Positions 4,221-63,025 of a stretch of DNA of 64,000 bases are shown here, in pieces (the stretch's first letter is position 1; each line of letters starts with the position of its first letter). Source of the DNA: Octopus sinensis (lineage: Eukaryota); assembly GCF_006345805.1 (NCBI RefSeq), contig NW_021836163.1, forward strand, positions 1 to 64,000. The letters are read 5' to 3'. Below the pieces are notes generated by a model that was not told the DNA's origin, made no database searches, and was given only the letters and a program-made list of their open reading frames with translations. A program made the position numbers and the translations under genes.

Positions 4221-6850
4221 GCACAAAGGATCCGCCGGTACGAGAAACGCCAGCGCTTCTTTGAACAAAACAAAAAGTTCAACTCCAACCCCAAAAAGTT
4301 CTACCAAGAACTTGGCAAAAATAAATTAGAAATCACTGCAGCACCAACGGCAGAAGAAGTGGAAGAATTCTGGAGAGAAATATGGTCGGCGAACGAACAA
4401 CCAAAAAAAAGGAGTATCAAAATAACAAACTCGGCATCTGATCAACTTTGGACCCCCATAACAACTGAAGAGGTCACCCAGGCACTGCAAAGAAGGCACC
4501 TGGGCATGACAAGATCCCCAACTTCTGGTTGAAATATCTAAAAGGAATGCACAAAAAGCTGGCTGAAAACTTTAACAACATACTAGTAGAGCCAGAGACA
4601 ATGCCTGAATGGCTCACGAACGGGAAAACTATCTTAATTCCCAAATCAAATGAGACAGCAAAACCAGAAAACTACAGACCAATAACCTGTCTCCCTACAA
4701 TGTACAAGGCATTTACTGCAGTGATATTGCAAAGGTTGAACAAGCACCTGGACGAAAAACAACCTGTTTCCAGAAGAGCAGAAAGGATGCCGCAAAGGCT
4801 CATATGGCTGTAAAGATCAACTAATGATTAATAAAGCCATAACTGAAGACAGCCACAGAAAGAAGAAAGGCCTCAGTATGGCCTGGATCGACTACAAAAA
4901 GGCGTTTGATAGCATCCCCCACCCATGGATCCTCGAAACACTAGCCATTAACAAAGTAGCACCAACAATCATAAAATTCATAGGGCACTCTATGAATAAA
5001 TGGCAAACAGTGCTACACCTCCAAACAAAAGAGGGACTCATGAAAACCAAAGACATCCCCATTAGAAGAGGAATATTCTAGGGAGACACGCTCTCTCCAC
5101 TCCTTTTCTGCTTGGCACTGTCACCCCTATCTGATATGCTAAATAGAACTGGATGCGGATATAAATGTTACGGCAAAACGATCAGCCACCTTTTATATAT
5201 TGATGACCTAAAACTATACGCTGCAAATGACAAACAGCTGGAAACACTATTAAAGACAGTTGATGGATTTAACAAAGAAATAGATATGAAATTTGGATTA
5301 GAAAAATGCGCCAAAGTAACCCTGAAAAGAGGAAAACTAGTTAAGTGTAGCAACATCACACTAGATAAAACCAATGAAATAAAAGAATTAGACCAAAGCC
5401 AAACTTACAAATACTTAGGAATCCATGAACTAGATAAGACACAACACACACAAATGAAAGAGAAAATAAAAAAAGAATATTATAGACGAGTTAGATCAAT
5501 ACTAAAAAGAGCTCAATGCTAAAAACAAGATAATAGGTATTAACACTTTAGCTGTCCCAGTTATAAGTTACAGCTACAATATCCTTAACTGGACACTAAA
5601 TGAACTGACCAAAATAGATAGGAAAACAAGAAAAATAATGACAGGATCTAGGATGCATCACCCAAAATCTGACATAGAAAGACTATATATACAACGTACA
5701 GAAAGTGGTAGAGGCCTTATACAACTGAAAAACTACTATAAAATAACCACCATAGGATTGCAAAAATATCTACTTCAGAAGGAAGGAAAACTGATACAAA
5801 TAGCGGCAAAACACGAGCAAAACAAAAAACTGTTCTCAGTATTTAAGGAAGCTGACAAATACAAACAAGAAATCATACCACCTAATAAATATGAAGAAGA
5901 AGAAGAAGAAGATGAAGAAAACAAAAGCTATAAAACAATGAAATCCAAACTAAAATAAAACAGCAACGAACCATGATAAAACGATGGCAAGAAAAGCCCC
6001 TTCATGGTAAATACTGGACTAAACTAAATGCAAAAGAAATAGACAAAGAAAAATCCCAGCAGTGGTTGAGAAGCTCAGGACTCAAAGCAGAAACAGAGGG
6101 ATTTTTAATTGCAGCACAAGACCAAAGCCTCCCCACCAGAAATTACCAAAAACATGTAATGAAAAGAAATATAACAAGTAACTGCAGAATATGTGGAGTT
6201 GGACAAGAAACAATAAATCATATTATCTCTAGCTGCCCAGTCCTGGCTAAGAAGGAATATATTCACAGACATGACAGGGTTGGAACCTACATACATTGGA
6301 AGCTATGCCAACATTATGGAATAACAACTGAAAAAAGATGGTATAGGCACACACCAGAAAAGGTCACAGAAAACGAGAAAGCAACCATACTCTGGGATAT
6401 GCCGATACACACAGATAGAAAAATTAAGGCCAACAGACCAGATATAGTTGTCAGAGATCATGAAAAAAAAAAATGCTTTCTAATTGATGTATCAACACCG
6501 GCTAATGTCAACGTGTCTCTAAAAGAAATGGAGAAACTCTCAAAATACAAAGACCTGGAAATAGAGGTAACCAGAATGTGGAACCTATAAACAGAAACAA
6601 TTCCTATCATAGTAGGTGCATTAGGCATGATAAAAAAATATTCAGACAAATACATAACAAAAACACCAGGACTTACAAACACATATAACATACAAAAAAT
6701 TGCACTACTAGGCACTGCACACATCCTACGCAGAACACTTTCCATACAATAACCATCAGAGCATCACAACAAAACACAGCACATACCCAAGGCACACAGA
6801 GCTGCGCTCGGTAGTGAAGTGAAAGCACGTTATAAAAATAAAACTACTGA
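4221..6850 (+). mobile_element. R4/Dong-like non-LTR retrotransposon, family A, 5'-truncated, with frameshifts and stops
   Basis: RT motifs YRPITCL, AWIDYKKAFDS, HLLYIDDLKLY, YKYLG; CCHC CRIC..HIISSC; RHD; RLE RPD..D..EKLSKY; (AAT)n on both flanks. Confidence 0.95.
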
Positions 6851-16245: not shown

Positions 16246-16768
16246 TTTCTTTATCCTAATAATTCCGACTTACAGCTGTTTCCAGTAGTCTTTATAGGTT
16301 CGTTAACAACAGATTTACTCAGTCGGTCCAGTGATCGCCTGAGAAAAATCGGTCAGAGTCATTTCTGGTTATGAGGAAGAACACTGAAGGAATGGTGCAG
16401 ACATGTTTTTTGGGGGAGGGAGCGAATAAGCATAGGGTGAGTGTAAGAGAGAGGGAGAGGAGAAGGGAAGAGGAAGAGGAAAGGGGGAAAGTGATGGTGT
16501 GGAAGAGAGGAGCTTCGTATTGTTGGTTAGAAACCAGTTCCTTCCTGAGAGGAAGATTCTAAATAAATGAAGACAGAAATAACACACATACATGCAAGCG
16601 TACATACACACATACATACACACACACACACATACATACATACATACATACATACATACATACATACACACACATACATACATACATACATACATACATA
16701 CATACATACATTCAAACATACATACATACATATACATACATACATACATATACATACATATACATACA

Positions 16769-16800
<32 letters not shown>

Positions 16801-17322
16801 CATACATACATACACACACACATACATACATACATACATACATACACACACACACATACATATATACATACATATACATACATACATACATACACACACA
16901 CATACATACACACACACATACATACATACATACATACATACATACATACATACATACAAACATACACACATACACACATACACACATACATACATACATA
17001 CATACATACATACATACATACATACATACATACATACATACACACACATACATACATACTCACGTACACACATATGCATATAAAGATGAAAGACAACATG
17101 TACATACAGTCGCATTCACCCCCTTTCCACACACACACACATGCACAACGTGGATGTGTGTCCCCTTAGAACTCACTGTTCCATAAATAAAGTATTTCTC
17201 TAAAATCCTTTATCGAACTCGCTATTTCCTAAGTATGCTTTTACTTTCTCAATGTTTTTTAATTAATCTAATACAGCTACTGGGTCATCCAGAAATCTGG
17301 TATAATGAAATGAAGTATGCGT

Positions 17323-24471: not shown

Positions 24472-25466
24472 TGCGTTATGGTATCCCAGAATATACGTGT
24501 GCAATAGCGAGTATGCGTATGTACGTATTTGGTGTGTATTTATGCCCGACTGTTAACGCATGTGTGAGTGTGTGTGAGTGTGTGAGTGTGTATGCTGAAG
24601 CTGCCTGTGTATATAAGTGTGAATGTATGTGAATATACATACATACATACATACATACACACACGCATGCATGCATACATACATACATACATACATACAC
24701 ACACGCATGCATACATACATACATATACACATACATACATATATACATATATACATACATACATACATGCATACATACATACATACATACATACATACAT
24801 ACATACATACATACACACATACATACATACACACATACATACATACATACACTCACATACATACATACACAGATACATACATACATACACACATACATAC
24901 ATATATACATATATACATACACACACGCATGCATGCATGCATACATACATACATACATACATACATACATACATACATACATACGTACATACACACATAC
25001 ACACATACATATATGTCCCCCTCCCCCTCTCTGTTTTTACGTTTTAATGAATGCGGTTTTAATTAAATTGAGAGATTACTCAGTACATTTGGTAAAGTAC
25101 AAATTTATTATTCTTTAACAACAACAGTATTGACAGGGACTTCGAAGCTTCGAGTAGCCAAGTCATCATCGGAATACATACATACACACATACATACATA
25201 CTTACATACGTACATACATACATATATACATACATACATATATATATATATGTATATATACATATATATATATGATATATATATATATACATATATATAT
25301 GTATATATGTATATATATATGTGCATATATACTCCCTCTTTACTCTTTTACTCTTTTACTTGTTTCAGTCATTTGACTGAGGCCATGCTGGAGCACCGCC
25401 TTTAGTCGAGCAAATCGACCCCGGGACTTATTCTTTGTAAGCCCAGTTCTTATTCTATCGGTCTCT

Positions 25467-26180
<714 letters not shown>

Positions 26181-27114
26181 TTCAGGGACAGCGAGAGAGA
26201 GAGAGAGAGAGAAAAGCGAAAGAGAAAACTGTGTTGAATGAGATTCCATGTGTGATGTCTGTGAGTGAGTGTGTTTGTACGTGCGCGCGTTTGGGTACGT
26301 GTGTGTGTGAGTGTGCGAGTGTACGTGTGTGTGTGAGTGTGCGAGTGTGCGTGTGTGTGCGTGTTTGTTTGTTTGTGTGTGTGTTTGTACGAATGAAGCT
26401 AGCGATGTTCATAGGTGTTAAGTATACGAAACGAGCGAATCGATAGACAGAAGCAGAGAGAGAGAGAGAGAGGAAGAGAGAGAAGGGAGGAGAGCGAGCG
26501 CGCGCGTGAGAGAGAGAAGGAGAGAAGGAGAGAAAGAAGGAGAAGAGGGAGTGAGAGGGAGAGCGGGAGAAGGCGGTGAAGCTGTGATGGAGGTCGTGAG
26601 ATACAGAACAGAGGTGAGTGCGTGGGCGACGGAAGCGTGCGTGGGCGTCGAGCGATTGGAAGGATAAACGGAGGTAGTCGTACACCTCCATCGGATGCCT
26701 GGCTCGAATCGGGACACTGGCACTCGACACACAACCATTTTCCTGCAAAACAACACCTGTTTGGGATTTCGACAGATTCTCTCTCTTTTTTGTTTTTGTT
26801 TGTTTTTTTTACTCCATCAAAACGTCTCCCCACCCCACCCCTCTGTTTCTTGTGGTTTCTCGACCTTTGTAGTTTCTTGTTGTAATGTTACCATCCTGTT
26901 TGGGCCCTTGTGACCAAAAAATGAAATTACCACCACCACCACCACCACCACCACCATTTTCATTATAATTATGCTTAGTCCCCCGTAACTTAGCGGTTCG
27001 GCAAAAAAAAACCGATAGAATAAGTCCTGCGGTCGATTTGCTCGACTAAAAGCGGTACTCCAGTATGGCCGCAGTCAAATGACTGAAACAAGTAAAAGAA
27101 TAAAAGAAAGAAAT

Positions 27115-27300
27115 TAGTGGCATTCCGTCCACCGTTAGTTATGTTCTGAGTTCAAATTCCGCCGTGGTCGACTTTACTTTTCCTCCTTTCGGAGTTCATG
27201 AAAAATAAGTACCAGTTACGCACTGGGGTCGATGTACTCGACTATCCCCCTTCCATCCCAAATTTCAGGCCTTGTACCTATAGTAGAAAGGATTATTATT
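27115..27300 (+). mobile_element. Meta-like SINE variant with (ATT)n tail
   Basis: Core GTCGACTTTACTTTTCCTCCTTTCGG; tail GGCCTTGTACCTATAGTAGAAAGGATTATT; similar copies at 27974-28205, 28850-29045, 36364-36555. Confidence 0.75.
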
Positions 27301-27327: not shown

Positions 27328-27900
27328 GAGTGAGAGAGCAGTGCATGCCATCAAAGTGACACTGGGGTAAAATATACGAAGCCCAATATACCCATCATGA
27401 CTACCCGTCTGATAAGGGTACACCAGGCACATGCATCACAACCATATGTGCGCGACATGGTGATCTCATATCAAGATAAACAGCACATGACCTTGCAGGT
27501 GGGGCCCAGTTAGAATTTTCTTCAGGTTGAGTAGCCCATCCCGCTGAAAAGGTCCCTGAATAAGGGTTGTTAAGGATGTTGAAAGAACCACCCATGTTTC
27601 CAGAGGTGAATTATTCAAACCCCAAAGACTCCCTCTCAACACATGGCTATGATGCTCCCCCACTACTTCTGCTCGTGATCAGAGATGCACATATCGTCAG
27701 CCACTAAGGGACATGCTCAACTGGTTAAGGTCAAACAACTGACAAGCAAATCTGTGGTATTGAGCAGAATATTTGCTGTAGCCCATCTTTTATACCAAGA
27801 CAAAACAATGTACATGATAACACTTCCAATCAGTTAAGATCAGAAGCCATGAGAGCCACTGCCTGGTACTGCATCAGGAGAGTTAGGTACTGCATCAGGG

Positions 27901-27901
<1 letters not shown>
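27328..27901 (-). mobile_element. ~552-bp (AAT)n-associated non-coding element, copy 1 (strand defined by the AAT strand)
   Basis: Same ends as other copies; (ATT)n on both sides; short terminal duplication of GGTACTGCATCAGG. Confidence 0.85.
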
Positions 27902-27973
<72 letters not shown>

Positions 27974-28356
27974 GAGGCAGTGGGCTGGCAGAATCGTTAG
28001 CACGCCGGTAGAAATGCTTAGCCGTATTTCGGCCGTAGCTACGTTCCGAGTTCAAATTCCGCCGAGGTCGACTTTGCCTTTCATCCTTTCGGAGTCGATA
28101 AATTAAGTACCAGCTAAATACTGGTCGATACCAGCTAAATGAGTCGATATAATCGACTCATCACCCTCCCCCAAAATTGCTGCCCTTGTGGCAAAATTTG
28201 AAATCATTATTATTATTATTATTATTATTGGGATAAGGCAACGAGCTGGCAGAATAGATAGATAGGTGGATAGATTAATGGATAGAGATAAATAGATTAG
28301 ATAGATAGATAGACAGACAAACAGATAACTAGATTGATAAATATTTACATAGAATG

Positions 28357-35110: not shown

Positions 35111-35328
35111 TCCCACTACTTCTGCACGTGATCAGAGATGCACATATCGTCAGCCACCAAGGGACATGCTCAGCTGGTTACGGTCCAACAACTGACAAGC
35201 AAATCTGTGGTATTGAGCAGAATGTTTGCTGTAGCCCATCTTTTATACCAAGACAAAACAATGTACATGATAACACTTCCAATCAGTTAAGATCAGAAGC
35301 CATGAGAGCCACTGTCTGGTACTGCATC
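35111..35328 (-). mobile_element. 552-bp element, partial copy 2
   Basis: Matches the terminal ~220 bp of 35431-35982; the truncated end is not at a microsatellite. Confidence 0.8.
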
Positions 35329-35385
35329 ATTATATTCATTATTATTATCATCATCATCATCATCATCATCATTATTATTATTATA

Positions 35386-35430
<45 letters not shown>

Positions 35431-35981
35431 GAGTGAGAGAGCAGTTCATGCCATCAAAGTGACACTGGGGTAAAATATACGAAGCCCAATATACCCATCA
35501 TGACTACCCGTCTGATAAAGGTACACCAGGCACATGCATCACAACCATATGTGCGCGACATGGTGATCTCATATCAAGATAAACAGCACATGACCTTGCA
35601 GGTGGGGCCCAGTTAGAATTTTCTTCAGGTTGAGTAGCCCATCCCGCTCAAAAGGTCCCTGAATAAGGGTTGTTAAGGATGTTGAAAGAACAACCATGTT
35701 TCCAGAGGTGAACTATTCAAACCCCAAAGAATCCCTCTCAACACATGGCTATGATGCTCCCCCACTACTTCTGCTCGTGATCAGAGATGCACATATCGTC
35801 AGCCACTAAGGGACATGCTCAACTGGTTAAGGTCAAACAACTGACAAGCAAATCTGTGGTATTGAGCAGAATATTTGCTGTAGCCCATCTTTTTATACAA
35901 GACAGAACAATGTACATGATAACACTTCCAATCAGTTAAGATCAGAAGCCATGAGAGCCACTGCCTGGTACTGCATCAGGG

Positions 35982-35982
<1 letters not shown>
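35431..35982 (-). mobile_element. 552-bp element, full copy 3
   Basis: (ATT)n|GAGTGAGAGAGCAG ... CTGCATCAGGGC|(ATT)n. Confidence 0.9.
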
Positions 35983-36355: not shown

Positions 36356-36939
36356 CATTATTAAGGTGGTGAGCTGGCAGAATCGTTAGCGGTATTTCGT
36401 CTGCCGCTACGTTCTGAGTTCAAATTCCGCCGAGGTCGACTTTGACTTTCATCCTTGCGGGGTCGATAAATACAGTACCAATCAAACACTGGTCGATATA
36501 ATTGACTCATCCCCCTCCCCACAAATTTCAGGCCTTGTGCCTAGAGTAGAAACGGTTATTTGTTTGTTTGTTTGTTAAATAGGTTTGGAGACACAAATTG
36601 AAAAGTGTTGTATACGAAGATCAGAGGAAAAATTGAAGTGTTTTTAGCTTCAACTTTACACAGAAACCACCCCGCCCCCGCTCGCGCGCGCTCACGCCTG
36701 CACGCTCATGCACACGCACTCACACGCATACACGTACATGCATACACACAAATGTAAACGCACTTACAAACACACACACTCACACGCGTTCATGCACTTA
36801 CAGACACACACGCGAACACACAGACACACACGAACACGCACTTGCAAGCACACACACACACTCATACACACATACACACACGGACACGCACTCACAGACA
36901 CATACACATACTATAACAAATGGACGTTTAGTGTTGTCA

Positions 36940-37243
36940 TATGTGTATGTATGTATGTATGCATGTATGTATGTATGTATGTATGTATGTATGTTTGTAT
37001 GTATGTATGTATGTATGTATGTGTGTGTATGTATGTATGTATGTATGTTTGTATGTATGTATGTATGTATGTATGTATGTATGCATGTTTGTACGTATGT
37101 ATGTTTGTATGTATGCATGTATGTATGTATGTATGTATGTATGTATGTATGTATGAATGTATGTATGTTATGTATGTATGTATGCATATATGTATGTACG
37201 TATGTTATGTATGCATGTATGTGTGTATGTATGCATGTATGTA

Positions 37244-37274
<31 letters not shown>

Positions 37275-37347
37275 TTATGTATGTATGTATTTATGTATGT
37301 GTGTGTGTGTATGTATGTATGCATGTATGTATGTATGCGTGTATGTA

Positions 37348-37382
<35 letters not shown>

Positions 37383-37445
37383 ATGTATGTATGTATGTGT
37401 GTGTATGTATGTATGCATGTATGTATGTATGTATGCATGTATGTA

Positions 37446-37476
<31 letters not shown>

Positions 37477-37650
37477 GTATGTATGTATGCATATATGTAT
37501 GTACGTATGTTATGTATGCATGTATGTGTGTATGTATGCATGTATGTATGTGTGTGTGTGTGTGTATGTATGTATTTATTATGTATGTATTTATTATGTA
37601 TGTGTGTGTGTGTATGTATGTATGCATGTATGTATGTATGCGTGTATGTA

Positions 37651-37685
<35 letters not shown>

Positions 37686-37744
37686 ATGTATGTATGTGTG
37701 TGTATGTATGTATGCATGTATGTATGTATGTATGCATGTATGTA

Positions 37745-37775
<31 letters not shown>

Positions 37776-37863
37776 GTATGTATGTATGCATATATGTATG
37801 TACGTATGTTATGTATGCATGTATGTGTGTATGTATGCATGTATGTATGTATGCATGTATGTA

Positions 37864-37894
<31 letters not shown>

Positions 37895-38020
37895 TTATGT
37901 ATGTATGTATTTATGTATGTGTGTGTGTGTATGTATGTATGCATGTATGTATGTATGTATGTATGTATGCATATATGTATGTACGTATGTTATGTATGCA
38001 TGTATGTGTGTGTGTGTGTG
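36940..38020. repeat. Compound (TATG)n/(TG)n microsatellite with ~300-bp higher-order periodicity
   Basis: Marker CATATATGTATGTACGTATGTTATG recurs at ~37185, 37490, 37789, 37970. Confidence 0.85.
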
Positions 38021-38202
38021 TCTACTGAATATGTGTGGGTGTGTGGGTGAGTCAGCTTCATTGAATCTTTTCCGCAGCCTTTACAAAACCCCCCTCCTCC
38101 CTCTCCTCAGTCACGTGGTGTCCTCTCGAAACATCGACGTCGCGAATGTCGTTGCCACAGCTGTTGTTGTTGCTGCAAGTACTGCTGCTCTTGTTGCACC
38201 TT

Positions 38203-38324
38203 CTACTACTACTACTACCACCACTACTACTACTACTACTACCACCACTACTACTACCACCACCACCACTAACTACTACTACTACTACTACTGATACTAC
38301 CACTACGACCACTACTACTACTAT

Positions 38325-38359
<35 letters not shown>

Positions 38360-38379
38360 TACACTACTACTACTACTAT

Positions 38380-38421
<42 letters not shown>

Positions 38422-38447
38422 CACCACTACTACTGCTACTACTACTG

Positions 38448-38499
<52 letters not shown>

Positions 38500-38531
38500 C
38501 ACCACTACTACTACTACTACAACCACTACCA

Positions 38532-38570
<39 letters not shown>

Positions 38571-38658
38571 TTACTACTACTACTACTACTACTACTATAC
38601 TACCACCACTACTACTACTACTACTACCACTACCACTACCACTACTACTACTACTACT

Positions 38659-38708
<50 letters not shown>

Positions 38709-38710
38709 CA

Positions 38711-38759
<49 letters not shown>

Positions 38760-38761
38760 CA

Positions 38762-38819
<58 letters not shown>

Positions 38820-39233
38820 CGCTACTAATGCGAATGCTACTGCTAGTGCTGCTGCTGCTTTTTGTTGCATGCTGCTACTACTGTTGCTGTTGCAGCAACT
38901 GCTCTCCTCTACTCGAATCATCTGCACCACAACAATATGGAATACACAAGACACTGTGTGTGTGTGTTATACGTGTGAAAGGGGCACAGAAAGACATTCA
39001 ATTTCTATCTGTCTATCTCTTTATCTGTCGGTATTTCTCTTTCTCTCTCTCTTTATCTACCTACCTACCTATCTATCTATCTATCTATCTATGATCTATC
39101 TATCTATCTACCTATTATCTATCTATCTATCTATCTATATCTATCTATTATCTACCTACCTATCTATCTATCTATCTATCTATCATCTATCTATCTATCT
39201 ATCTATTATTATCTATCTATCTATATCTATCTA

Positions 39234-39294
<61 letters not shown>

Positions 39295-39315
39295 CTCTAT
39301 CATCTATCTATTCTA

Positions 39316-39354
<39 letters not shown>

Positions 39355-39469
39355 ATCTATTCTATCTATCTATCTATATCTATCTACTATCTATCTATAT
39401 ATCTATCTATCTATCTATCTATCTATCTGTCTATCTATCTATCTATCTATATCTATCTATCTATATCTA

Positions 39470-39539
<70 letters not shown>

Positions 39540-39555
39540 CTATCTACTGTCTCTA

Positions 39556-39594
<39 letters not shown>

Positions 39595-39728
39595 AATATC
39601 TTTTGTTTTTCTTTTGTTTTTTGTTCTCTTCATCCCCCAAAAGAAAAGCTCTACCTTGTAACTTGTTCCATCTGTGTGCAGCCCTGTGTGGCCAATAAAG
39701 AAACTTATCTATCTACCTATCTATCTAC

Positions 39729-39819
<91 letters not shown>

Positions 39820-39860
39820 CCTACCTACCTACCTATTTATCTATCTATCTATCTGCCTGC
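38203..39860. repeat. (CTA/CCA)n followed by (TATC)n microsatellite blocks
   Basis: Direct inspection. Confidence 0.9.
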
Positions 39861-40002
39861 CTGCCTACCTCCCTTTCTGTCTGTCTCTACACACACACAT
39901 ATATATATATATACATATGTTATGTATGTAGATATGTATGTAAATATCTGTAAATATATGTATATGTGAGCATATATATATACATGCATATATGTATGTA
40001 TG

Positions 40003-40674: not shown

Positions 40675-40676
<2 letters not shown>

Positions 40677-42610
40677 ATCCCTAAATGCTGGTGATGTAAA
40701 AATTTCGTGTGGCATTTTCCAGGGTGACTCACTGTCACCACTCCTCTTTTGTTTATCCTTAATACCTCTCTCAAAGCTGCTCAATGACGCGCAGTACGGG
40801 TATAAAATGTTTGATAAAAATATAAATCATCTCATTTACATGGATGATTTAAAGCTTTTTACAAAAAATGACCAACAACTCAAGGGCTTACTAGCGATAG
40901 TCAAACAATTCAGTGACGACATCAGAATGCAATTCGGCCTCGATAAATGTTCAAAGGCTACCTTTATCAAAGGAAAAATGACAGAAACATCTAACGTTAA
41001 CCTTGACCAGCAGAATGTCATAAAAGAACTAGACCCAGCGGAGAGCTACAAGTACCTAGGGGTAATTGAAGGGAACGGAATAAGGCATTCAGAGATGAAG
41101 GAAAGGATCAGGAGAGAATGCTATCGAAGAGTGAGAGCAATACTCAAGACAGAGCTGAATGCAAGAAACAGGATCGAAGCGATCAATGCATTAGCCATAC
41201 CAGTCGTGACTTACAGTTTCAATATTGTTAACTGGTCAATTACTGAAATATGTCAGCTCGACAGAAAAATAAGGAAACTGTTGACAATGCATAGAATGCA
41301 CCACCCTAAGGCAGATACAGAACGACTCTATCTGCCAAGAAAAGAGGGAGGCCGTGGTCTTTGCAACTGGCAATAACAATGAAGATTGCTACAATTGGCC
41401 TAGACACCTACCTAAAAACTCTGAGGACTGGATGTTAAAACTTGTCTCAAAACATGAAAACAAGAAGCATCATACTCAGTCACAAAACAGGCAAAGGAAT
41501 ATCTAAGTGAATTCCGAATACAACCAATTTCGGAATTAGAGATAGACATACAAGAAACAAACACAGAAAAAGCTAGGCGCATGAAAACCCGTGCCAAAAC
41601 TGCGGCCTTAGATATTCTGAATAATAAATGGCAAGAAAAACCTCTCTATGGCAATACCCAAAGAGAGCGAATAATGCAGATATCGACAAAGCCCTGACCC
41701 ATCAATGGCTAATGGCCTCTGGCTTAAAATCTGAAACAGAGGGGTTTATCATAGCAGCTCAAGATCAATGCCTCCCAACAAGAAACTACCAGGCCAACAT
41801 ATTAAAGAACGGCAGTAGCCCAACATGTCGTGTATGCCGACAACAAAATGAAACCATTGACCATGTTGTCTCCAAATGCAGTCTTCTAGCGCCTACAGAG
41901 TACCTCAGTAGGCATGATAGAGCAGCACAATATATTCACTGGGTAATTTGCAAAAACCTGGATTTGCCCCATGAAAAAAACTGGTGGAAACACAATCCAC
42001 CTCCTGTGCTTGAAAATGACCACATCTCACTCCTCTGGAACTTCACCATTCAAACTGACAGGAAGATAGATGCAAATAGGCCAGACATCATATTGAAAGA
42101 CTTCAGACAAAGAACATGCCTCCTCATTGATATGACTGTCCCAATCGATATAAACGTATCTGTCAAGACCTACCAAAAACTGAGCAAATATAAAGATCTT
42201 GAAATAGAAATCAGCAAAATGTGGAAGCTGAATACTAAAACAATACCTGTTGTCATAGGTGCCCTGGGAATGATAGCGAAAGGGACTGATTGCTACCTAA
42301 CTCAGATACCAGGAAACCCCAAAATGGCAGAAATTCAAAAGATAGTGCTCATGGGAACTGCTCATATCCTACGCAAAATACTCTCTATGTAATCCCAAGG
42401 TTTAAAACAAACTTTTTTTTATTTTTATTTATTATTTTTTTTTGTTATTTTTTTATTTTTATGTATTAGACATTCACTAGTACAACACCAAAAAAAAAAC
42501 AACAAAAAAACCCAAATATATGGCACAGAACTTCTAACCTGTTGTCTCTTGAGGTCTCTGGGTGAGACTTGGAGCCAACTTGTACAGACATAAAGCAAAA
42601 GTCAAACATA

Positions 42611-42611
<1 letters not shown>
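40675..42611 (+). mobile_element. R4/Dong-like non-LTR retrotransposon, family B, 5'-truncated
   Basis: GIFQGDSLSPLLFC, HLIYMDDLKLF, CRVC..HVVSKC, RHD, NRPDIIL..D, KLSKYKDL; (AAT)n on both flanks. Confidence 0.95.
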
Positions 42612-47837: not shown

Positions 47838-49320
47838 GTATTCAGCATGCAAGCATGAAAGAGAAAATCAGGAAGGAATGTTATAGGAGAGTTCGTGCAG
47901 TCCTGAAATCTGAACTAAATGCACGTAACAAGGTGTTAGCTATAAATTCCTTAGCAGTTCCAGTTGTTACTTATAGCTACAATGTGTTGAACTGGAATAT
48001 GAGTGAAGTAAAGAATATAGATAGAAAAATACGCAAGCTGCTGAGTTGTAATAGGATGCACCACCCAAAGGCAGACGTAGATCGCCTTTACCTTCCCAGA
48101 GCCCAAGGAGGTCGAGGCCTGATCCAATTTGAACTAGCTTACAAAACAACCACAATTGGACTGACCAAATATCTCGAAATATCGAATGACTGGATGCTAA
48201 AGCTCGTGGAAAATCACGAGAGACGTAAGAAGCTTCATTCTATCATAAAGGAAAGCAAAAAATTTGCTATTGATCTCGTGCAGGATACCCAAACAGAACA
48301 ACCCGAGGGAAGTACGGCAACTATTGTTGCAAAGAAGGTGAAAATGATGGCAATGAAAAAAGCGCACGAGCAATTGGCTGATAGGTGGGAGGAGAAACCT
48401 CTGCACGGCAAATATGTGACCCGCAGCAAACAAGCTGATGTTGACCAGAAGCAAACCCATCAGTGGCTGCGGAGCTCAGAGCTAAAAGCAGAGAGCGAAG
48501 GTTTCATCCTGGCTGCTCAAGATCAAAGCCTATTAACCCGGAACTACCAGGCCAATGTGATGAAAAATGGAGCAGACCCAAAATGCCGATTCTGCAACGA
48601 CATGATTGAAACAGTGGACCACCTAATCTCTGGATGTAAAGTCTTAGCTCCAGTGGAGTATAAATTAAGACATGACAGAGTTGGCCAATATCTCCACTGG
48701 CTAATAAGTCGGCATTACAATATCAAAACTGCCGACAAGTGGTATAATCACCACCCTGAGGCTGTAACTGAAGGAGAAAATGTAACCATTCTGTGGGACT
48801 TTCCAATACATACAGACCGAACCATCAAGGCCAATAAACCAGATATTGTTGTGAAAGACCAAAACAATAAAGTTTGCTTATTGATCGACATGAGCATCCC
48901 CTGTGATCATAATATCTCAGCGAAAGAGTTTGACAAGCTCAGAAAATATAAAGACCTACTCATTGAAATTGAGAAAATGTGGCATCTCAAGGCGGTTACA
49001 ATACCAGTGATCGTAGGAGCACTAGGAATGATCAAGAAGGGAACCGAAAATTAAATGAGAATGATCCCTGGCTTACCATCCCTGCAAGAAGTGCAAAAGA
49101 TTGTCTTAACTGGTACATCACACGTATTGAGAAGAGCATTGTCGATGTGAGAACTGTTGCTGCTCATGTATTTTAATTTAACTTAAAAAAAAAAAAAAAT
49201 GAACGAACTATTGAGTTTGGTTTAATGGCCTACCAATGTATACTATGAGTTTCTTTGCCCTAGGAGTCGGGAAGATACTCGGCAAGAAATGGAAGCAAAT
49301 TTGAAAGAAGAAAAAAAAAG
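47837..49320 (+). mobile_element. R4/Dong-like retrotransposon, family C copy 1, 5'-truncated
   Basis: 399-aa open frame: MHHPKADVDRLYLPRAQGGRGL, CRFC..HLISGC, RHD, KPDIVV..D, KLRKYKDL; TAT>TAA stop versus copy 2; (AAT)n flanks. Confidence 0.95.
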
Positions 49321-49368
49321 TAATAATAATAATAATAATAATATAATAATAATAATAATAATAATAAC

Positions 49369-49401
<33 letters not shown>

Positions 49402-49443
49402 TATAATAATACATATAATAATAATGATAATGAAATAATAATA

Positions 49444-49496
<53 letters not shown>

Positions 49497-49522
49497 TGAT
49501 AATAATAATAATAATAATAATA

Positions 49523-49554
<32 letters not shown>

Positions 49555-49561
49555 TAATAAA

Positions 49562-50111
49562 TGATGCAGTACCAAGCAGTGGCTCTCATGGCTTCTGATC
49601 TTAACTGATTGGAAGTGTTATCATGTATATTGTTTTGTCTTGGTATAAAAGATGGGCTACAGCAAATATTCTGCTCAATACCACAGATTTGCTTGTCAGT
49701 TGTTTGACCTTAACCAGTTGAGCATGTCCCTTAGTGGCTGACGATATGTGCATTTTTGATCACGAGCAGAAGTAGTGGGGAAGCATCATAACCATGTGTT
49801 GAGAAGGATTCTTTGGGGTTTGAATAATTCACCTATGGAAACATGGGTGTTTCGTTCAACGTCCTTAAACAACCCTTATTCAGGGACCTTTTGAGTGGGA
49901 TGGGTTACTCGATCTGAAGAAAATTCTAACTGGGCCCCACCTGCAAGGTCATGTGCTATTTATCTTGATATGAGATCACCATGTCGCGCACATATGGTTG
50001 TGATGCATGTGCCTGGTGTACCCTTATCAGACGGGTAGTCATGATGGGTATACTGGGCTTCGTATATTTTACCCCAGTGTCACTTTGATGGCATGCTCTG
50101 CTCGCTCACTC
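49562..50111 (+). mobile_element. 552-bp element, copy 4
   Basis: Reverse complement of 35431-35982; (AAT)n flanks. Confidence 0.9.
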
Positions 50112-50141
50112 AATAATAATAATAATAATAATAGTGATAAC

Positions 50142-50238
<97 letters not shown>

Positions 50239-50792
50239 GCCCTGATGCAGTACCAGGCAGTGGCTCTCATGGCTTCTGATCTTAACTGATTGCAAGTGTT
50301 ATCATGTACATTGTTTTGTCTTGGTATAAAAGATGGGCTACAACAAATATTCTGCTCAATACCACAGATTTGCTTGTCAGTTGTTTGACCTTAACCAGTT
50401 GAGCATGTCCCTTAGCGGCTGACAATATGTGCATCTCTGATCACGAGCAGAAGTAGTGGGGAAGCATCATAGCCATGTGTTGAGAGGAATTCTTTGGGGT
50501 TTGAATAATTCACCTCTGGAAACATGGGTGTTTCGTTCAACATCCTTAAACAACCCTTATTCAGGGACCTTTTGAGTGGGATGGGCTACTCGACCTGAAG
50601 AAAATTCTAACTGGGCCCCACCTGCAAGGTCATGCGCTGTCTATCTTGATATAAGATCACCATGTCTCGCACATATGGTTGTGATGCATGTGCCTGGTGT
50701 ACCATTATCAAACGGGTAGTCATGATGGGTATACTGGGCTTCGTATATTTTACCCCAGTGTCACTTTGATGGCATGCACTGCTCTCTCACTC
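50239..50792 (+). mobile_element. 552-bp element, copy 5
   Basis: GCCCTGATGCAGTACC ... CTCTCTCACTC; (AAT)n flanks. Confidence 0.9.
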
Positions 50793-50849
<57 letters not shown>

Positions 50850-50869
50850 TAATAATGATAATAATAAAT

Positions 50870-51423
50870 GCCCTGATGCAGTGCCAGGCAGTGGCTCTCA
50901 TAGCTTCTGATCTTAACTGATTGCAAGTGTTATCATGTACATTGTTTTGTCTTGGTATAAAAGATGAACTACAGCAAATATTCTGCTCAATACCACAGAT
51001 TTGCTTGTCAGTTGTTTGACCTTAACCAGTTGAGCATGTCCCTTAGTGGCTGACGATATGTGCATCTCTGATCACGAGCAGAAGTAGTGGGAGAGCATCA
51101 TAGCCATGTGTTGAGAGGAATTCTTTGGGGTTTGAATAATTCACCTCTGGAAACATGGGTGTTTCTTTCAACATCCTTAAACAACCCTTATTCAGGGACC
51201 TTTTGAGCGGGATGGGCTACTCAACCTGAAGAAAATTCTAACCGGGCCCCACCTGCAAGGTCATGTGCTGTTTATCTTGATATGAGATCACCATGTCGCG
51301 CACATATGGTTGTGATGCATGTGTCTGGTGTACCTTTATCAGACGGGTAGTCATGATGGGTATATTGGGCTTCGTATATTTTACCCCAGTGTCACTTTGA
51401 TGGCATACACTGCTCTCTCACTC
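50870..51423 (+). mobile_element. 552-bp element, copy 6
   Basis: Same termini; (AAT)n flanks. Confidence 0.9.
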
Positions 51424-51444: not shown

Positions 51445-51933
51445 AAGGTCACAGAAAAAGAGAAAGCAACCATACTCTGGGATATGCCGATACACACAGA
51501 TAGAGAAATCAAGGCCAACATACCAGATATAGTTGTCAAAGATCATGAAGAAAAAAATGCTTTCTAATTCATGTATCAATACCGGCAGATGACAACGTGT
51601 CTCTAAAAGAAATGGAGAAACTCTCAAAATACAAAGACCTGGAAATAGAGGTAACCAGAATGTGGAATCTAAAAACAGAAACAATTCCTATCATAGTAAT
51701 TGCATTAGGCATGATAAAAAAATATTCAGACAAATACATAACAAAAACACCAGGACTCACAAACACATATAACATACAGAAAATTGCACTACTAGGCACT
51801 GCACACATCCTACGCTGAACACTTTCCATACAATAACCATCAGAGCATCACAACAAATCACAACACGTACCCAAGGCACACAGAGCTGCGCTCGGTAGTG
51901 AAGTGAAAGCACGCTATAAAAATAAAACTACTG
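51445..51933 (+). mobile_element. R4/Dong family A copy 2, heavily 5'-truncated
   Basis: Near-identical to 6360-6850 including the 3' UTR ending AAACTACTG(AAT)n. Confidence 0.92.
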
Positions 51934-52010: not shown

Positions 52011-52093
52011 AATAATAATAATAATGATGATAATAATAATAATAATGATAATAATAATAATAATAATAAACTTAATAATAATAATGATAATAA

Positions 52094-52359
52094 GTTGTTT
52101 GACCTTAACCAGTTGAGCATGTCCCTTAGTGGCTGACGATATGTGCATCTCTGATCACGAGCAGAAGTAGTGGGGGAGCATCATAGCCATGTGTTGAGAG
52201 GAATTATTTGGGGTTTGAATAATTCACCTCTGGAAACATGGGTGGTTCTTTCAACATCCTTAAACAATCCTTATTCAGGGACCTTTTGAGCGGGATGGGC
52301 TACTCAACCTGAAGAAAATTCTAACTGGGCCCCACCTGCAAGGTCATGTGCTGTTTATC
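52094..52359 (+). mobile_element. 552-bp element, internal partial copy 7
   Basis: Matches the middle of the element; AAT-type repeats on both sides. Confidence 0.85.
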
Positions 52360-52432: not shown

Positions 52433-52436
<4 letters not shown>

Positions 52437-53710
52437 TACGCAAGCTGCTGAGTTGTAATAGGATGCACCACCCAAAGGCAGACGTAGATCGCCTTTACCT
52501 TCCCAGAGCCCAAGGATGTCGAGGCCTGATCCAATTTGAACTAGCTTACAAAACAACCACAATTGGACTGGCCAAATATCTCGAAATATCGAATGACTGG
52601 ATGCTAAAGCTCGTGGAAAATCACGAGAGACGAAAGAAGCTTCATTCTATCATAAAGGAAAGGAAAAAAATTGCTATTGATCTCGTGCAGGATATCCAAA
52701 CAGAACAACCCGAGGGAAGTACGGCAATTATTGTTGCAAAGAAGGTGAAAATAATGGCAACGAAAAAATGGCTGATAGGTGGGAGGAGAAACCTCTGCAC
52801 GGCAAATATGTGACCCGCAGCAAACAAGCTGATGTTGGCCAGAAGCAAACCCATCAGTGGCTACGGAGCTCAGAGCTAAAAGCAGAGAGCGAAGGTTTCA
52901 TCCTGGCTGCTCAAGATCAAAGCCTATTAACCCGGAACTACCAGACCAATGTGATGAAAAATGGAGCAGACCCAAAATGCCGATTCTGCAACATGATTGA
53001 AACAGTGGACCACCTAATCTCTGGATGTAAAGTCTTAGCTCCAGTGGAGTATAAATTAAGACATGACAGAGTTGGCCAATATCTCCACTGGCTAATAAGT
53101 CGGCATTACAATATCAAAACTGCCGACAAGTGGTATAATCACCACCCTGAGGCTGTAACTGAAGGAGAAAATGTAACCATTCTGTGGGACTTTCCAATAC
53201 ATACAGACCGAACCATCAAGGCCAATAAACCAGATATTGTTGTGAAAGACCAAAACAATAAAGTTTGCTTATTGATCGACATGAGCATCCCCTGTGATCA
53301 TAATATCTCAGCGAAAGAGTTTGACAAGCTCAGAAAATATAAAGACCTACTCATTGAAATTGAGAAAATGTGGCATCTCAAGGCGATTACAATACCAGTG
53401 ATCGTAGGAGCACTAGGAATGATCAAGAAGGGAACCGAAAATTATATGAGAATGATCCCTGGCTTACCATCCCTGCAAGAAGTGCAAAAGATTGTCTTAA
53501 CTGGTACATCACACGTATTGAGAAGAGCATTGTCGATGTGAGAACTGTTGCTGCTCATGTATTTTAATTTAACTTAAAAAAAAAAAAAAAATGAACGAAC
53601 TATTGAGTTTGGTTTAATGGCCTACCAATGTATACTATGAGTTTCTTTGCCCTAGGAGTCGGGAAGACACTCGGCAAGAAATGGAAGCAAATTTGAAAGA
53701 AGAAAAAAAA
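52433..53710 (+). mobile_element. R4/Dong family C copy 2, 5'-truncated
   Basis: Near-identical to 48025-49320 with small deletions; intact C-terminus VLRRALSM. Confidence 0.95.
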
Positions 53711-53780
53711 AATAATAATGATAATAATAATAATAATAATGATGATAATAATAATAATAACAATAATAATAATGATGATG

Positions 53781-53823
<43 letters not shown>

Positions 53824-53828
53824 TAATA

Positions 53829-54268
53829 TGCTCAATACCACAGATTTGCTTGTCAGTTGTTTGACCTTAACCAGTTGAGCATGTCCCTTAGTGGCTGACG
53901 ATATGTGCATCTCTGATCACGAGCAGAAGTAGTGGGGGAGCATCATAGCCATGTGTTGAGAGGGATTCTTTGGGGTTTGAATAATTCACCTCTGGAGACA
54001 TGGGTGGTTTTTTCAACATCCTTAAACAACCCTTATTCAGGGACCGTTTGAGCGGGATGGGCTACTCAACCTGAAGAAAATTCTAACCGGGCCCCACCTG
54101 CAAGGTCATGTGCAGTTTATCTTGATATGAGATCGCCATGTCGCGCACATATGTTTGTGATGCATGTGTCTGGTGTACCTTTATCAGACAGGTAGTCATG
54201 ATAGGTATACTGGGCTTCGTATATTTTACCCCAGTGTCACTTTGATGGCATGAACTGCTCTCTCACTC
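53829..54268 (+). mobile_element. 552-bp element, copy 8, lacking the first ~115 bp
   Basis: Intact CTCTCTCACTC end; (AAT)n flanks. Confidence 0.88.
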
Positions 54269-61566: not shown

Positions 61567-62124
61567 GCCCTGATACAGTATCAGGCAGTGGCTCTCGTGG
61601 CTTCTGATCTTAACTGATTGGAAGTGTTATCATGTACATTGTTTTGTCTTGGTATAAAAAGATGGGCTACAACAAATATTCTGCTCAATACTACAGATTT
61701 GCTTGTCAGTTGTTTGACTTTAACCAGTTGAGCATGTCCCTTAGTGGCTGACGATATGTGCATCTCTGATCACGAGCAGAAGTAGTGGGAGAGCATCATA
61801 GCCATGTGTTGAGAGGAATTCTTGGGGGTTTGAATAATTCACCTCTGGAAAAATGGATGTTTCGTTCAACATCTTTAAACAACCATTAATATTCAAGGAC
61901 CATTTGAGCAGGATGAGCTACTCGACTTGAATAGATTTCTAACTGGGCGCCACCGTCAAGGTGATGCGCTGTTTATCTTGATATGAGATCACCATGTCGC
62001 GCACATATGGTTGTGATGCATGTGCCTGGTGTACCATTATCAAACGGGCGGTCATGATGGGTATATTGGGCTTCGTATATTTGACCCCAGTGTCACTTTG
62101 ATGGCATGCATTGCTCTCTCACTC
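61567..62124 (+). mobile_element. 552-bp element, copy 9 (more diverged)
   Basis: Same termini; AAT-rich flanks. Confidence 0.88.
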
Positions 62125-62154: not shown

Positions 62155-62833
62155 TACATAAACTACAGAATAAACAACACAGTAGAAAGTGATAAGTGAA
62201 GAATCTGTGGACAAAACGGTGAAACCGTATGGCATATTACCAGCCATTAGCCCAGAAGGAATATAAGAGACGCCACTACAATATAGCCAGGCTTGTCCAT
62301 TTGACACTTTGCAACAGGTATGGACTTGACAGAGCAAAAACTTGGTACGACCACAAACCTGAAGGCATCGTCGAAAATAGAAATGCAAAGATCCTATGGG
62401 ATTTTATGATTCAGTGCGACCATGAGATAGAGGATAGGAAGCCGGACATAGTGTTAATTGAGAAAGAAAACAAACTATGCTGGATCATAGATATAGCATG
62501 CCCAGCTGACAACAAGATATGCGATAAGGAAGAAAGAAGAGTCGAGAGATATGACAGGTTAGCTTAGGAAGTTAAGCAGTTGTGGTCGATGAAAAAGGTG
62601 GTGGTAGTACCAATAATTATCGGAGCCCTGGGAACAGTGAGTAAAAATCTTGAGAAGTACGTGGAACAAATAGGGGCTGCAATAAGGGTGGAGCACTTCC
62701 AGAAAACATCACTGCTTGGAACCGTTTGAATACTTCGGAAGGTGCTCGAAAAATAAGAGGTGTTACTTTAGTTCATTGGTAGTGAACAGCTCACACTGTA
62801 GTACATCTCCAGCGTTAGAAGCTGTGCAAAGGC
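62155..62833 (+). mobile_element. R4/Dong-like retrotransposon, family D, 3' fragment
   Basis: LAQKEYKRRH, KILWDFMIQCDHEIEDRKPDIVLIEK..IIDIACP, PIIIGALG; preceded by (AAT)n, followed by (GAT)n(AAT)n. Confidence 0.9.
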
Positions 62834-62920
<87 letters not shown>

Positions 62921-62921
<1 letters not shown>

Positions 62922-63000
62922 TGCAGTTCCAGAAAGTGGCTCTCATGTCTTCTGATCTTAACTGACTGGAAGTATTATGTACATTGTTTTGTCTTGGTAT
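62921..63000 (+). mobile_element. 552-bp element, 80-bp terminal fragment (copy 10)
   Basis: ATGCAGTTCCAGAAAGTGGCTCTCATGTCTTCTGATCTTAACTG directly after (AAT)n. Confidence 0.75.
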
Positions 63001-63025
63001 GAAATTTAACTAAAATAACCGTCTA

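What the first reader, a model, noticed from the sequence alone, without database searches (positions are those of the whole stretch)
49562..51423. A 552-bp structured non-coding element tied to (AAT)n: candidate non-autonomous partner of Dong/R4 LINEs
Seen: ten copies (27328, 35111, 35431, 49562, 50239, 50870, 52094, 53829, 61567, 62921). Full copies have fixed ends (GCCCTGATGCAG...CTCTCTCACTC), sit directly in (AAT)n, and always have the same polarity relative to the microsatellite strand. I see no ORF, TIR or tRNA A/B box, but many hairpins (CCATGT..GAGAGG/CCTCT..ACATGG; TACCC/GGGTA; ACTGGG/CCCAGT; CAGTG/CACTG). Known: Dong elements (R4 clade) target (TAA)n, and R2 has non-autonomous SIDE derivatives. 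Inference: this is a SINE/SIDE-like passenger of the microsatellite-specific RLE machinery. I do not recognise the family. Its 3' end does not obviously match any Dong 3' UTR here, and two copies are truncated at non-AAT ends, so sense direction and mobiliser remain open.
Basis: partly seen in the sequence, partly recalled or inferred. Interest (0 to 1): 0.85.

Follow-up and report, generated by a model that had tools for sequence, protein, structure and literature searches.

The report
Non-coding jumping element targeting AAT repeats
A 554-base non-coding repeat with at least 9,681 copies in this genome sits almost always inside AAT repeats and is often cut short at one end only; it likely spreads by borrowing the copying enzyme of neighbouring Dong-type jumping genes, whose predicted RNA hairpin it appears to share.

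Summary
In detail: ten copies at the stated places. Genome-wide there are 9,681 exact matches to a 3' 35-mer (roughly 17,000 or more copies by recapture). Direction is now settled: 15 of 30 copies picked by their 3' end are 5'-truncated, 14 of them at an AAT tract, whereas none of 30 picked by their 5' end breaks at AAT. That is retrotransposition with the AAT strand as sense, the polarity of the neighbouring Dong/R4-type LINEs. Ten Dong-type families share a covarying 3' UTR stem-loop, and a model trained on them alone ranks the element's nt 457-498 as the best non-Dong hit in the window. That signal is modest (14.6 bits; E 0.07 for the window, 6e-4 within the element). No Pol III head, ribozyme, ORF or TIR was found. 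Nt 101-270 is 96% identical to the interior of an older Chapaev3-like MITE. Verdict: likely a microsatellite-specific non-autonomous passenger of Dong, working like EhSINE1 or R2 SIDEs but a member of neither. The partner family, promoter and transcript are unproven; Repbase and Dfam could not be searched.

The parts
49562..50111 (+). element copy, nt 5-554
   Evidence: 96.4% to majority
50239..50792 (+). element copy, full length
   Evidence: 96.9%
50870..51423 (+). element copy, full length
   Evidence: 98.0%
27328..27901 (-). element copy with a short duplication of its 5' end (27881-27901)
   Evidence: 99.3%
35431..35982 (-). element copy, full length
   Evidence: 98.6%
35112..35329 (-). 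element copy nt 5-222, 3' part lost at non-AAT sequence
52093..52359 (+). element fragment nt 141-407, AAT-like on both sides (exception to the fixed 3' end)
53823..54268 (+). 5'-truncated copy (about nt 109-554) between AAT tracts
61567..62124 (+). older full-length copy (93%)
62921..63004 (+). older fragment nt 7-93, 3' part lost at non-AAT sequence
50014..50055 (+). Dong-like 3' stem-loop in copy 49562 (9-pair lower stem, UUA bulge, 6-pair upper stem, GGGUA loop), predicted
   Evidence: CM R1 14.6 bits; descriptor; pairs
51326..51367 (+). same stem-loop in copy 50870 (weaker-scoring variant)
   Evidence: 9.4 bits
50970..51139 (+). segment (nt 101-270) shared with an older Chapaev3-like MITE
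   Evidence: loose ends at 50973 and 51139; 164/170 identity
51095..51318 (+). arms of the predicted 17-pair helix (nt 226-242 with 433-449) that crosses the MITE-shared border
49321..49561 (+). (AAT)n target tract between a Dong A 3' end and the first copy
50112..50238 (+). (AAT)n tract between copies
50793..50869 (+). (AAT)n tract between copies
47852..49320 (+). 5'-truncated Dong-type LINE, family A; 3' stem-loop 49250-49290
51445..51933 (+). 5'-truncated Dong-type LINE, family B; 3' stem-loop 51862-51902
52433..53712 (+). 5'-truncated Dong-type LINE, family A; 3' stem-loop 53642-53682
40675..42611 (+). 5'-truncated Dong-type LINE, family C; 3' stem-loop 42540-42580
62155..62833 (+). 5'-truncated, older Dong-type LINE, family D; 3' stem-loop 62758-62798
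5454..6849 (+). 5'-truncated Dong-type LINE, family B; 3' stem-loop 6778-6818

Best explanation
The element is a 554-nt non-coding repeat, present in at least 9,681 copies, that lies in (AAT)n with a fixed 3' end and variable 5' truncations, and it is likely a non-autonomous retroelement copied by the reverse transcriptase-endonuclease of Dong/R4-type LINEs. Inferred mechanism: an RNA of the AAT strand, starting near AAAU-GCCC, folds into long rods. A Dong protein would bind the bulged pentaloop stem-loop 74 nt from the 3' end, nick the (ATT)n strand of a microsatellite and prime reverse transcription from the nick. Early stops would give the 5'-truncated copies, and re-priming the short 5' duplications and inversions. 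Each insertion leaves AAT on both sides, so arrays of Dong and element build up. Shown: target, polarity, truncation bias, junction features, copy number. Predicted: the folds. Untested: protein binding, which Dong family acts, the promoter and the RNA itself.
For: Polarity (two position-ordered samples of 30 from contig C1, ten copies shared): 30 of 30 copies picked by the 3' 35-mer are followed by AAT. 16 of 30 start late; one of these (L063) is an internal deletion, and 14 of the other 15 meet an AAT tract within 21 nt. Of 30 picked by the 5' 35-mer, 3 end early and 0 of those 3 at AAT (Fisher p 6e-4 on 16 vs 3); 29 of 30 have AAT upstream. 5' duplications occur in 9 of the 49 distinct copies; inverted 5' pieces at L011, L089, L127. 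Dong A, B and C 5' ends meet AAT the same way and show the same duplications (L147, L155; L098, L152). Family C has a 1,272-aa ORF with RT (Pfam E 7e-28) whose five PDB matches are R2 or R2-sized RT proteins. A, B and C copies are 96-99% alike, as young as the element (median about 98% to majority). Ten Dong-type 3' UTRs share a stem-loop; in the 14-row alignment from nine of them 82% of cells pair, 11 of 14 pairs change on both sides, and slid controls pair 32-44%. A covariance model from those rows ranks the six Dong UTRs of the window first and element copies 7th, 8th and 9th of 27 hits; within the element the best hit is that stem-loop, sense strand, E 6e-4, next best E 0.62. A hand descriptor gave 28.3, against 23-32 for eight of nine left-out Dong families and a maximum of 23.9 in 200 shuffles. 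Both common variants in this stem (nt 466, 496) keep pairing. Loop-to-tail distance is 74 nt, against 44-88 in nine Dong families.
Against: Plain local alignment to 13 Dong UTR sequences is not significant (best p 0.047, uncorrected). The stem-loop was spotted by eye before it was scored and I set the descriptor's weights; family G failed leave-one-out (6.9). The CM signal is modest: E 0.07 in the window, the commoner variant scores 9.4-11.4 bits, level with background hits, copy 50239 and copy 61567 are not among the 27 hits, and only about 10 element copies reached E 3 in 32 loci, below several hits I did not identify. The element has U where the Dong rows have an invariant G, plus one extra bulge. 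No LINE sharing the 3' sequence was found. A few copies end early at AAT (52093-52359, L169, L202). Five of the 11 paired high-frequency variants elsewhere break predicted pairs. No transcript evidence was obtained. The Dong/R4 label rests on target and motifs (recalled) and was not tested with a tree.
Confidence: 0.82

Rival explanations
1. It is a stringent partner or deletion derivative (SIDE-like) of one Dong family that I did not sample or that has decayed, such as the family D/I lineage, and shares real sequence with that family's ends.
For: The stem-loop looks most like families D, E and I (same bulge spacing, NGGUA loop). Old element copies at 81-88% identity have the same 554-nt plan, an age similar to family D (78-93% aa, broken frames). 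The 5' ends of D-J were not recovered.
Against: No blastn match to the 5' ends of A, B or C or to 20 D loci beyond separate copies. No loose end at the 5' border of the stem-loop among the six best-supported per run (3,575 others not shown). D is decayed while the element has copies 0.4% from the majority, so a younger enzyme must act now. Compatible with the best explanation on mechanism; differs on origin.
Confidence: 0.25
2. It is moved by another retro-machinery that also favours AT-rich repeats (Penelope-like or another RLE clade), and the Dong-like hairpin is chance.
For: Tandem 5' duplications and inversions also occur in Penelope-like elements (recalled); a hammerhead core lies beside an AAT tract in L028. 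The CM score is modest.
Against: No hammerhead core in the element or across a tandem pair, with a positive control detected. Target, strand and junction style match Dong exactly. The hairpin is on the right strand at the right distance from the tail.
Confidence: 0.1
3. It is an ordinary Pol III SINE or LINE 3' UTR read on the other strand, with an (ATT)n tail.
For: A tRNA-type SINE with an ATT tail sits next to copy 27328, so ATT-tailed elements exist here.
Against: Truncations fall at the end that would be its 3' end. That strand has no A or B box and folds no better than shuffles. No ORF lies next to intact copies.
Confidence: 0.02
4. It is a DNA-level element (a MITE derivative or a satellite unit spread by recombination between AAT tracts).
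For: 170 nt are shared with a Chapaev3-like MITE; tandem copies and a 54-bp array of a 5' piece exist.
Against: The ends are not inverted repeats. No hybrid with MITE ends was found (0 and 0 matches against 6,278 for the positive control). One-sided truncation is not expected from cut-and-paste or recombination.
Confidence: 0.03

Closest known systems
EhSINE1/EhSINE2 and R4-N1_ED of Entamoeba (partners of EhLINE1/2 and R4-1_ED)
   Same: 500-600 bp, non-coding, no clear Pol III boxes, non-autonomous partner of an R4-type LINE (PMC2996970 passages; table rows of PMC3747384).
   Different: EhSINE1 shares about 70 bp of sequence with its LINE, makes ordinary TSDs and lacks targeted insertion (PMC1635306, abstract start in listing). 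This element shares only a fold and is microsatellite-specific.
R2 SIDEs of Drosophila
   Same: Site-specific non-autonomous passengers of an RLE LINE, recognised through the 3' end (PMC3774820 passages).
   Different: SIDEs consist of the R2 HDV-like ribozyme plus 3' UTR-like sequence and target 28S rDNA. Here no ribozyme or 5' homology was found and the target is (AAT)n.
Dong (R4 clade), Bombyx and octopus Dong-R4 families
   Same: Same target repeat and strand; an octopus annotation lists 5 recently active Dong-R4 families (PMC13282606).
   Different: Dong is autonomous with a roughly 1,270-aa ORF; Bombyx Dong has a 5' self-cleaving ribozyme, which I could not detect here.
Stringent-type SINEs with 3' stem-loops; octopus tRNA SINEs OK, OR1, OR2 and Ceph-SINEs
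   Same: 3' stem-loop recognition is common in stringent LINE/SINE pairs (PMC3747384 passage).
   Different: Those have tRNA heads (reference titles in PMC4758252; family names partly recalled); this has none.
Chapaev3 non-autonomous transposons
   Same: The MITE sharing nt 101-270 has CAC...GTG termini and TWA duplications between A and T, as described in PMC4079192 (passages).
   Different: The element itself has no TIR; only an internal segment is shared.

Membership tests
Non-autonomous non-LTR retroelement (TPRT) | fixed 3' end with variable 5' truncation | tested here: met
   15 true 5' truncations of 30; 0 of 30 with a 3' break at AAT
Non-autonomous non-LTR retroelement (TPRT) | no coding capacity, dispersed high copy number | tested here: met
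Non-autonomous non-LTR retroelement (TPRT) | exists as an RNA | not testable with these tools
   served no RNA run holding more than 0.11 of the words
Dong passenger | same target and polarity as Dong | tested here: met
Dong passenger | 3' recognition signal shared with Dong | tested here: inconclusive
   fold matches at modest score; sequence does not
Dong passenger | mobilised by Dong protein | not testable with these tools
   needs biochemistry
SINE (Pol III) | tRNA, 5S or 7SL head with internal promoter | tested here: not met
   no Rfam RNA, no tRNA, no B box; one A-box-like match at nt 84
R2-type SIDE | 5' HDV-like ribozyme | tested here: inconclusive
   only weak two-mismatch folds, none starting at the 5' end; the descriptor had no working positive control; Rfam blank
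R2-type SIDE | ends derived from the autonomous partner | tested here: not met
   no match to A, B, C 5' ends or to 13 3' UTR sequences; 5' ends of D-J not seen
EhSINE-type | about 70 nt of 3' sequence identity with partner LINE | tested here: not met
Retrozyme (Penelope partner) | hammerhead ribozyme | tested here: not met
   control detected
MITE | terminal inverted repeats and TSD | tested here: not met
   hybrids absent
Already catalogued family (Repbase, Dfam, SINEBase) | sequence match to a deposited consensus | not testable with these tools
   libraries not available; may be among 893 unclassified SINE families of PMC13282606
Chapaev3 (for the MITE, not the element) | CAC...GTG termini and TWA duplication | tested here: met
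   exact 3-bp duplication in 6 of 14 scorable decayed copies of 30

The most novel reading that the evidence does not exclude
The element is a structure-only mimic of a 3' RNA signal common to all Dong families. With no sequence tie to any one family, it has hitch-hiked on successive Dong lineages (first the now-decayed D/I group, now A, B and C) and become a microsatellite-specific parasite with tens of thousands of copies, while donating part of its rod to a DNA transposon.
Probability: 0.35. Interest if true: 0.78.

Novelty: new variant of a known kind. Interest (0 to 1): 0.6.

Why it matters
Non-autonomous partners of restriction-like-endonuclease LINEs are known from few cases (R2 SIDEs, Entamoeba SINE-like elements). 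My searches found none that targets a microsatellite. If Dong does move this element, it is a natural minimal template for a site-specific retrotransposon: it points to the 42-nt bulged pentaloop as the recognition signal of the R4/Dong clade. That makes directly testable how stringent 3' recognition is, and whether one passenger can use several co-existing LINE families. It also helps explain how AAT arrays grow in this genome, and gives a class to a repeat that automated pipelines would likely leave as an unclassified SINE.

Tried and rejected
Rfam at E 10 gave only AAT-driven and weak matches. Pfam on six frames read through stops gave 0 families; tblastn of Dong pieces gave nothing, though one of its three queries was out of frame. 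Smith-Waterman of the element against 13 Dong UTR sequences was not significant. The HDV descriptor found nothing convincing in the element or in Dong A, B, C 5' ends, so it is uninformative. The first hammerhead descriptor missed its control and was relaxed. An attempt to recover the family D 5' end failed: the longest of 20 loci reached residue 322 of the family C protein. A junction pattern for the MITE gave 0 matches because the junction was guessed one base short. The four runs laid were contigs and show no strand, ends or empty sites. A bacterial promoter scan was irrelevant. The flanks of the two non-AAT breaks in the window matched nothing else in the loci held. Earlier scan notes: nothing. 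Literature searches listed no description of this family or of a conserved Dong 3' stem-loop; one search returned 0 papers. Subscription journals, Repbase reports and the papers' supplements (including the octopus repeat library) were not seen and may hold it.

Full report
Observation. The genome G000 has 2.72 Gb in 13,516 contigs. I infer an octopus-like host from its size, composition and repeat content; this is recalled and no tool confirmed it. Exact 35-mers give 9,681 matches for the 3' end and 4,640 for the 5' end, with 0 for reversed controls; the 5' count includes tandem arrays of a 5' piece. Of 27 intact copies picked by the 5' pattern, 15 carry the exact 3' pattern, which gives about 17,000 copies, probably an underestimate. 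The majority of 76 full-length copies is 554 nt, median divergence 1.5%, range 0.4-11.7% (that set includes 30 loci chosen as best hits). Copies down to 81% identity keep the same plan. The DNA is held at 0.83-0.96 of its words by 14 runs of 8 studies under four organism labels, one possibly the source.

Direction and target. I took the first 30 matches along contig C1 for each end pattern (30 of 9,681 and 30 of 4,640; ten copies fall in both). All 30 picked by the 3' end are followed by AAT, which was not part of the pattern. Sixteen start late. One (L063) is an internal deletion, and 14 of the remaining 15 meet an AAT tract within 21 nt. Of the 30 picked by the 5' end, three stop early: one is a 5' duplication in front of a full copy, two are cut by unrelated sequence, none ends at AAT (Fisher p 6e-4). 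AAT upstream of truncated copies shows that the tract is the target and not just a tail. Nine of the 49 distinct copies have a short duplication of their own 5' part, and three loci show inverted 5' pieces. AAAT precedes GCCC in 21 of 38 junctions, including two directly after a duplicated piece, so the RNA likely starts there. Exceptions exist: 52093-52359, L169 and L202 end early at AAT. The pattern is that of target-primed reverse transcription with the AAT strand as sense.

The candidate enzymes. The window holds six LINE 3' ends of four families, and the loci add about six more families. Family C is intact in places: 1,272 aa, RT domain, five PDB matches, all R2 or R2-sized RT proteins, with a CCHC knuckle and PD..D motif visible in the sequence. 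The name Dong/R4 follows from target and motifs, not from a tree. Families A, B and C are 96-99% alike within family; D is older and broken. Their 5' ends meet AAT as the element's do, with the same tandem duplications in L147, L155, L098 and L152 (seen by eye among 39 loci).

The shared 3' signal. The UTRs differ in sequence, and local alignment to the element is not significant (13 sequences, best p 0.047). They do share a fold: lower stem, three-base 5' bulge opposite one base, six-pair upper stem, pentaloop. On 14 rows from nine families (G left out because it aligned out of register), 82% of cells pair, 11 of 14 pairs change on both sides, and slid controls pair 32-44%. The element has this fold at nt 458-497, with a 9-pair lower stem, UUA bulge and GGGUA loop, 74 nt from the tail against 44-88 in nine families. 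Model R1, built without the element, ranks the six Dong UTRs of the window first (20-38 bits, training families) and element copies next (14.6, 11.4, 11.2 bits) among 27 hits. Within one copy the E-value is 6e-4, next best 0.62. A hand-made descriptor scored 28.3 against 23-32 for eight of nine left-out families and at most 23.9 in 200 shuffles. The two common variants in this stem keep pairing. Limits: I saw the hairpin before scoring it; the commoner variant scores at background level; two full copies in the window were missed; about 10 element hits reached E 3 in 32 loci, below some hits I did not identify; and the element has U at a position invariant G in the Dong rows. I take this as good but not conclusive evidence.

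The rest of the element. The sense strand folds better than shuffles (z -2.5 for one copy, -3.2 for the majority) and the other strand does not; five of 11 paired frequent variants break predicted pairs. No Pol III head, hammerhead, Pfam domain or TIR was found; the HDV test is inconclusive. No match was found to the 5' ends of A, B or C; those of D-J were not seen. How the RNA is made is unknown. Contigs from all four runs laid showed loose ends at 50973 and 51139. These led to an older repeat of about 500 bp (copies 83-86% to the query) with roughly 140-bp imperfect inverted ends, CAC...GTG termini and TWA duplications (exact in 6 of 14 scorable copies), the Chapaev3 hallmarks of PMC4079192. 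Its interior is 164 of 170 identical to nt 101-270. No hybrid forms were found (control 6,278 matches). Two hints favour capture from the element into the MITE: 35 predicted pairs at P above 0.8, including a 17-pair helix reached by 1 of 100 shuffles, join this segment to element-only sequence; and two CpG sites of the element are decayed in 28 of 30 MITE copies. The direction remains an inference.

Comparison. It works like EhSINE1 with its R4-type LINE (PMC2996970, passages; PMC3747384, passages and table rows) and like R2 SIDEs (PMC3774820, passages and one section). It fails the tested membership features of both, and of Pol III SINEs, retrozymes and MITEs. An octopus annotation lists 5 recently active Dong-R4 families and 893 unclassified SINE families (PMC13282606, first third of the text and passages), so the family may be deposited there unnamed. 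PMC4758252 (passages) gave no matching description. Nine searches listed no paper on this family or on the Dong stem-loop; supplements, Repbase and Dfam were not seen.

Verdict. A real, young, high-copy, microsatellite-specific non-autonomous retroelement (about 0.95), likely moved by Dong-type proteins (0.82). New variant of a known kind; interest 0.6.

Noticed in passing
window 42540-42580, 53642-53682, 49250-49290, 62758-62798, 6778-6818, 51862-51902; L005, L010, L089, L096, L128, L154: About ten Dong-type LINE families with unrelated 3' UTR sequences share a covarying bulged pentaloop stem-loop 44-88 nt before the AAT tail; not found in my literature searches.
   Followed up: yes
L180-L209 (e.g. 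G000:C1:176658135-176658559): Old Chapaev3-like MITE of about 500 bp with TWA duplications whose interior matches element nt 101-270; possible capture of a retroelement piece by a DNA transposon.
   Followed up: partly
L137, L143 (A), L093, L096, L098 (C), L147, L149, L155 (B), 5' ends: All three young Dong families have a GGACGT motif close to their 5'-most recovered ends and a splice-donor-like GTRAGT about 100-150 nt further on; perhaps an internal Pol II promoter and a 5' UTR intron. No HDV-like ribozyme was seen.
   Followed up: no
L061-L090: 10 of 15 5' truncation points fall at nt 50-110, just upstream of the predicted hairpin at nt 112-216; possibly a pause or cleavage region.
   Followed up: no
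L066/L103, L079, L130, L177: Element pieces fused directly to Dong ORF sequence without AAT between; template switch or later deletion in an array.
   Followed up: partly
window 27976-28229 and 27143-27298: tRNA-type SINE copies with ATT tails flank copy 27328 and use the same microsatellite in the opposite polarity.
   Followed up: no
G000:C1:68851379-68853032: Tandem array with about 54-bp period made of the element's 5' piece.
   Followed up: no
L011: A 5'-inverted copy has been amplified in tandem.
   Followed up: partly
L028, downstream flank: Hammerhead ribozyme core next to an AAT tract, likely a Penelope-like element (label recalled).
   Followed up: no
window 36637-39969, 25340-26887, 16369-17186: Long stop-free frames are artefacts of tetranucleotide and trinucleotide repeats.
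   Followed up: yes
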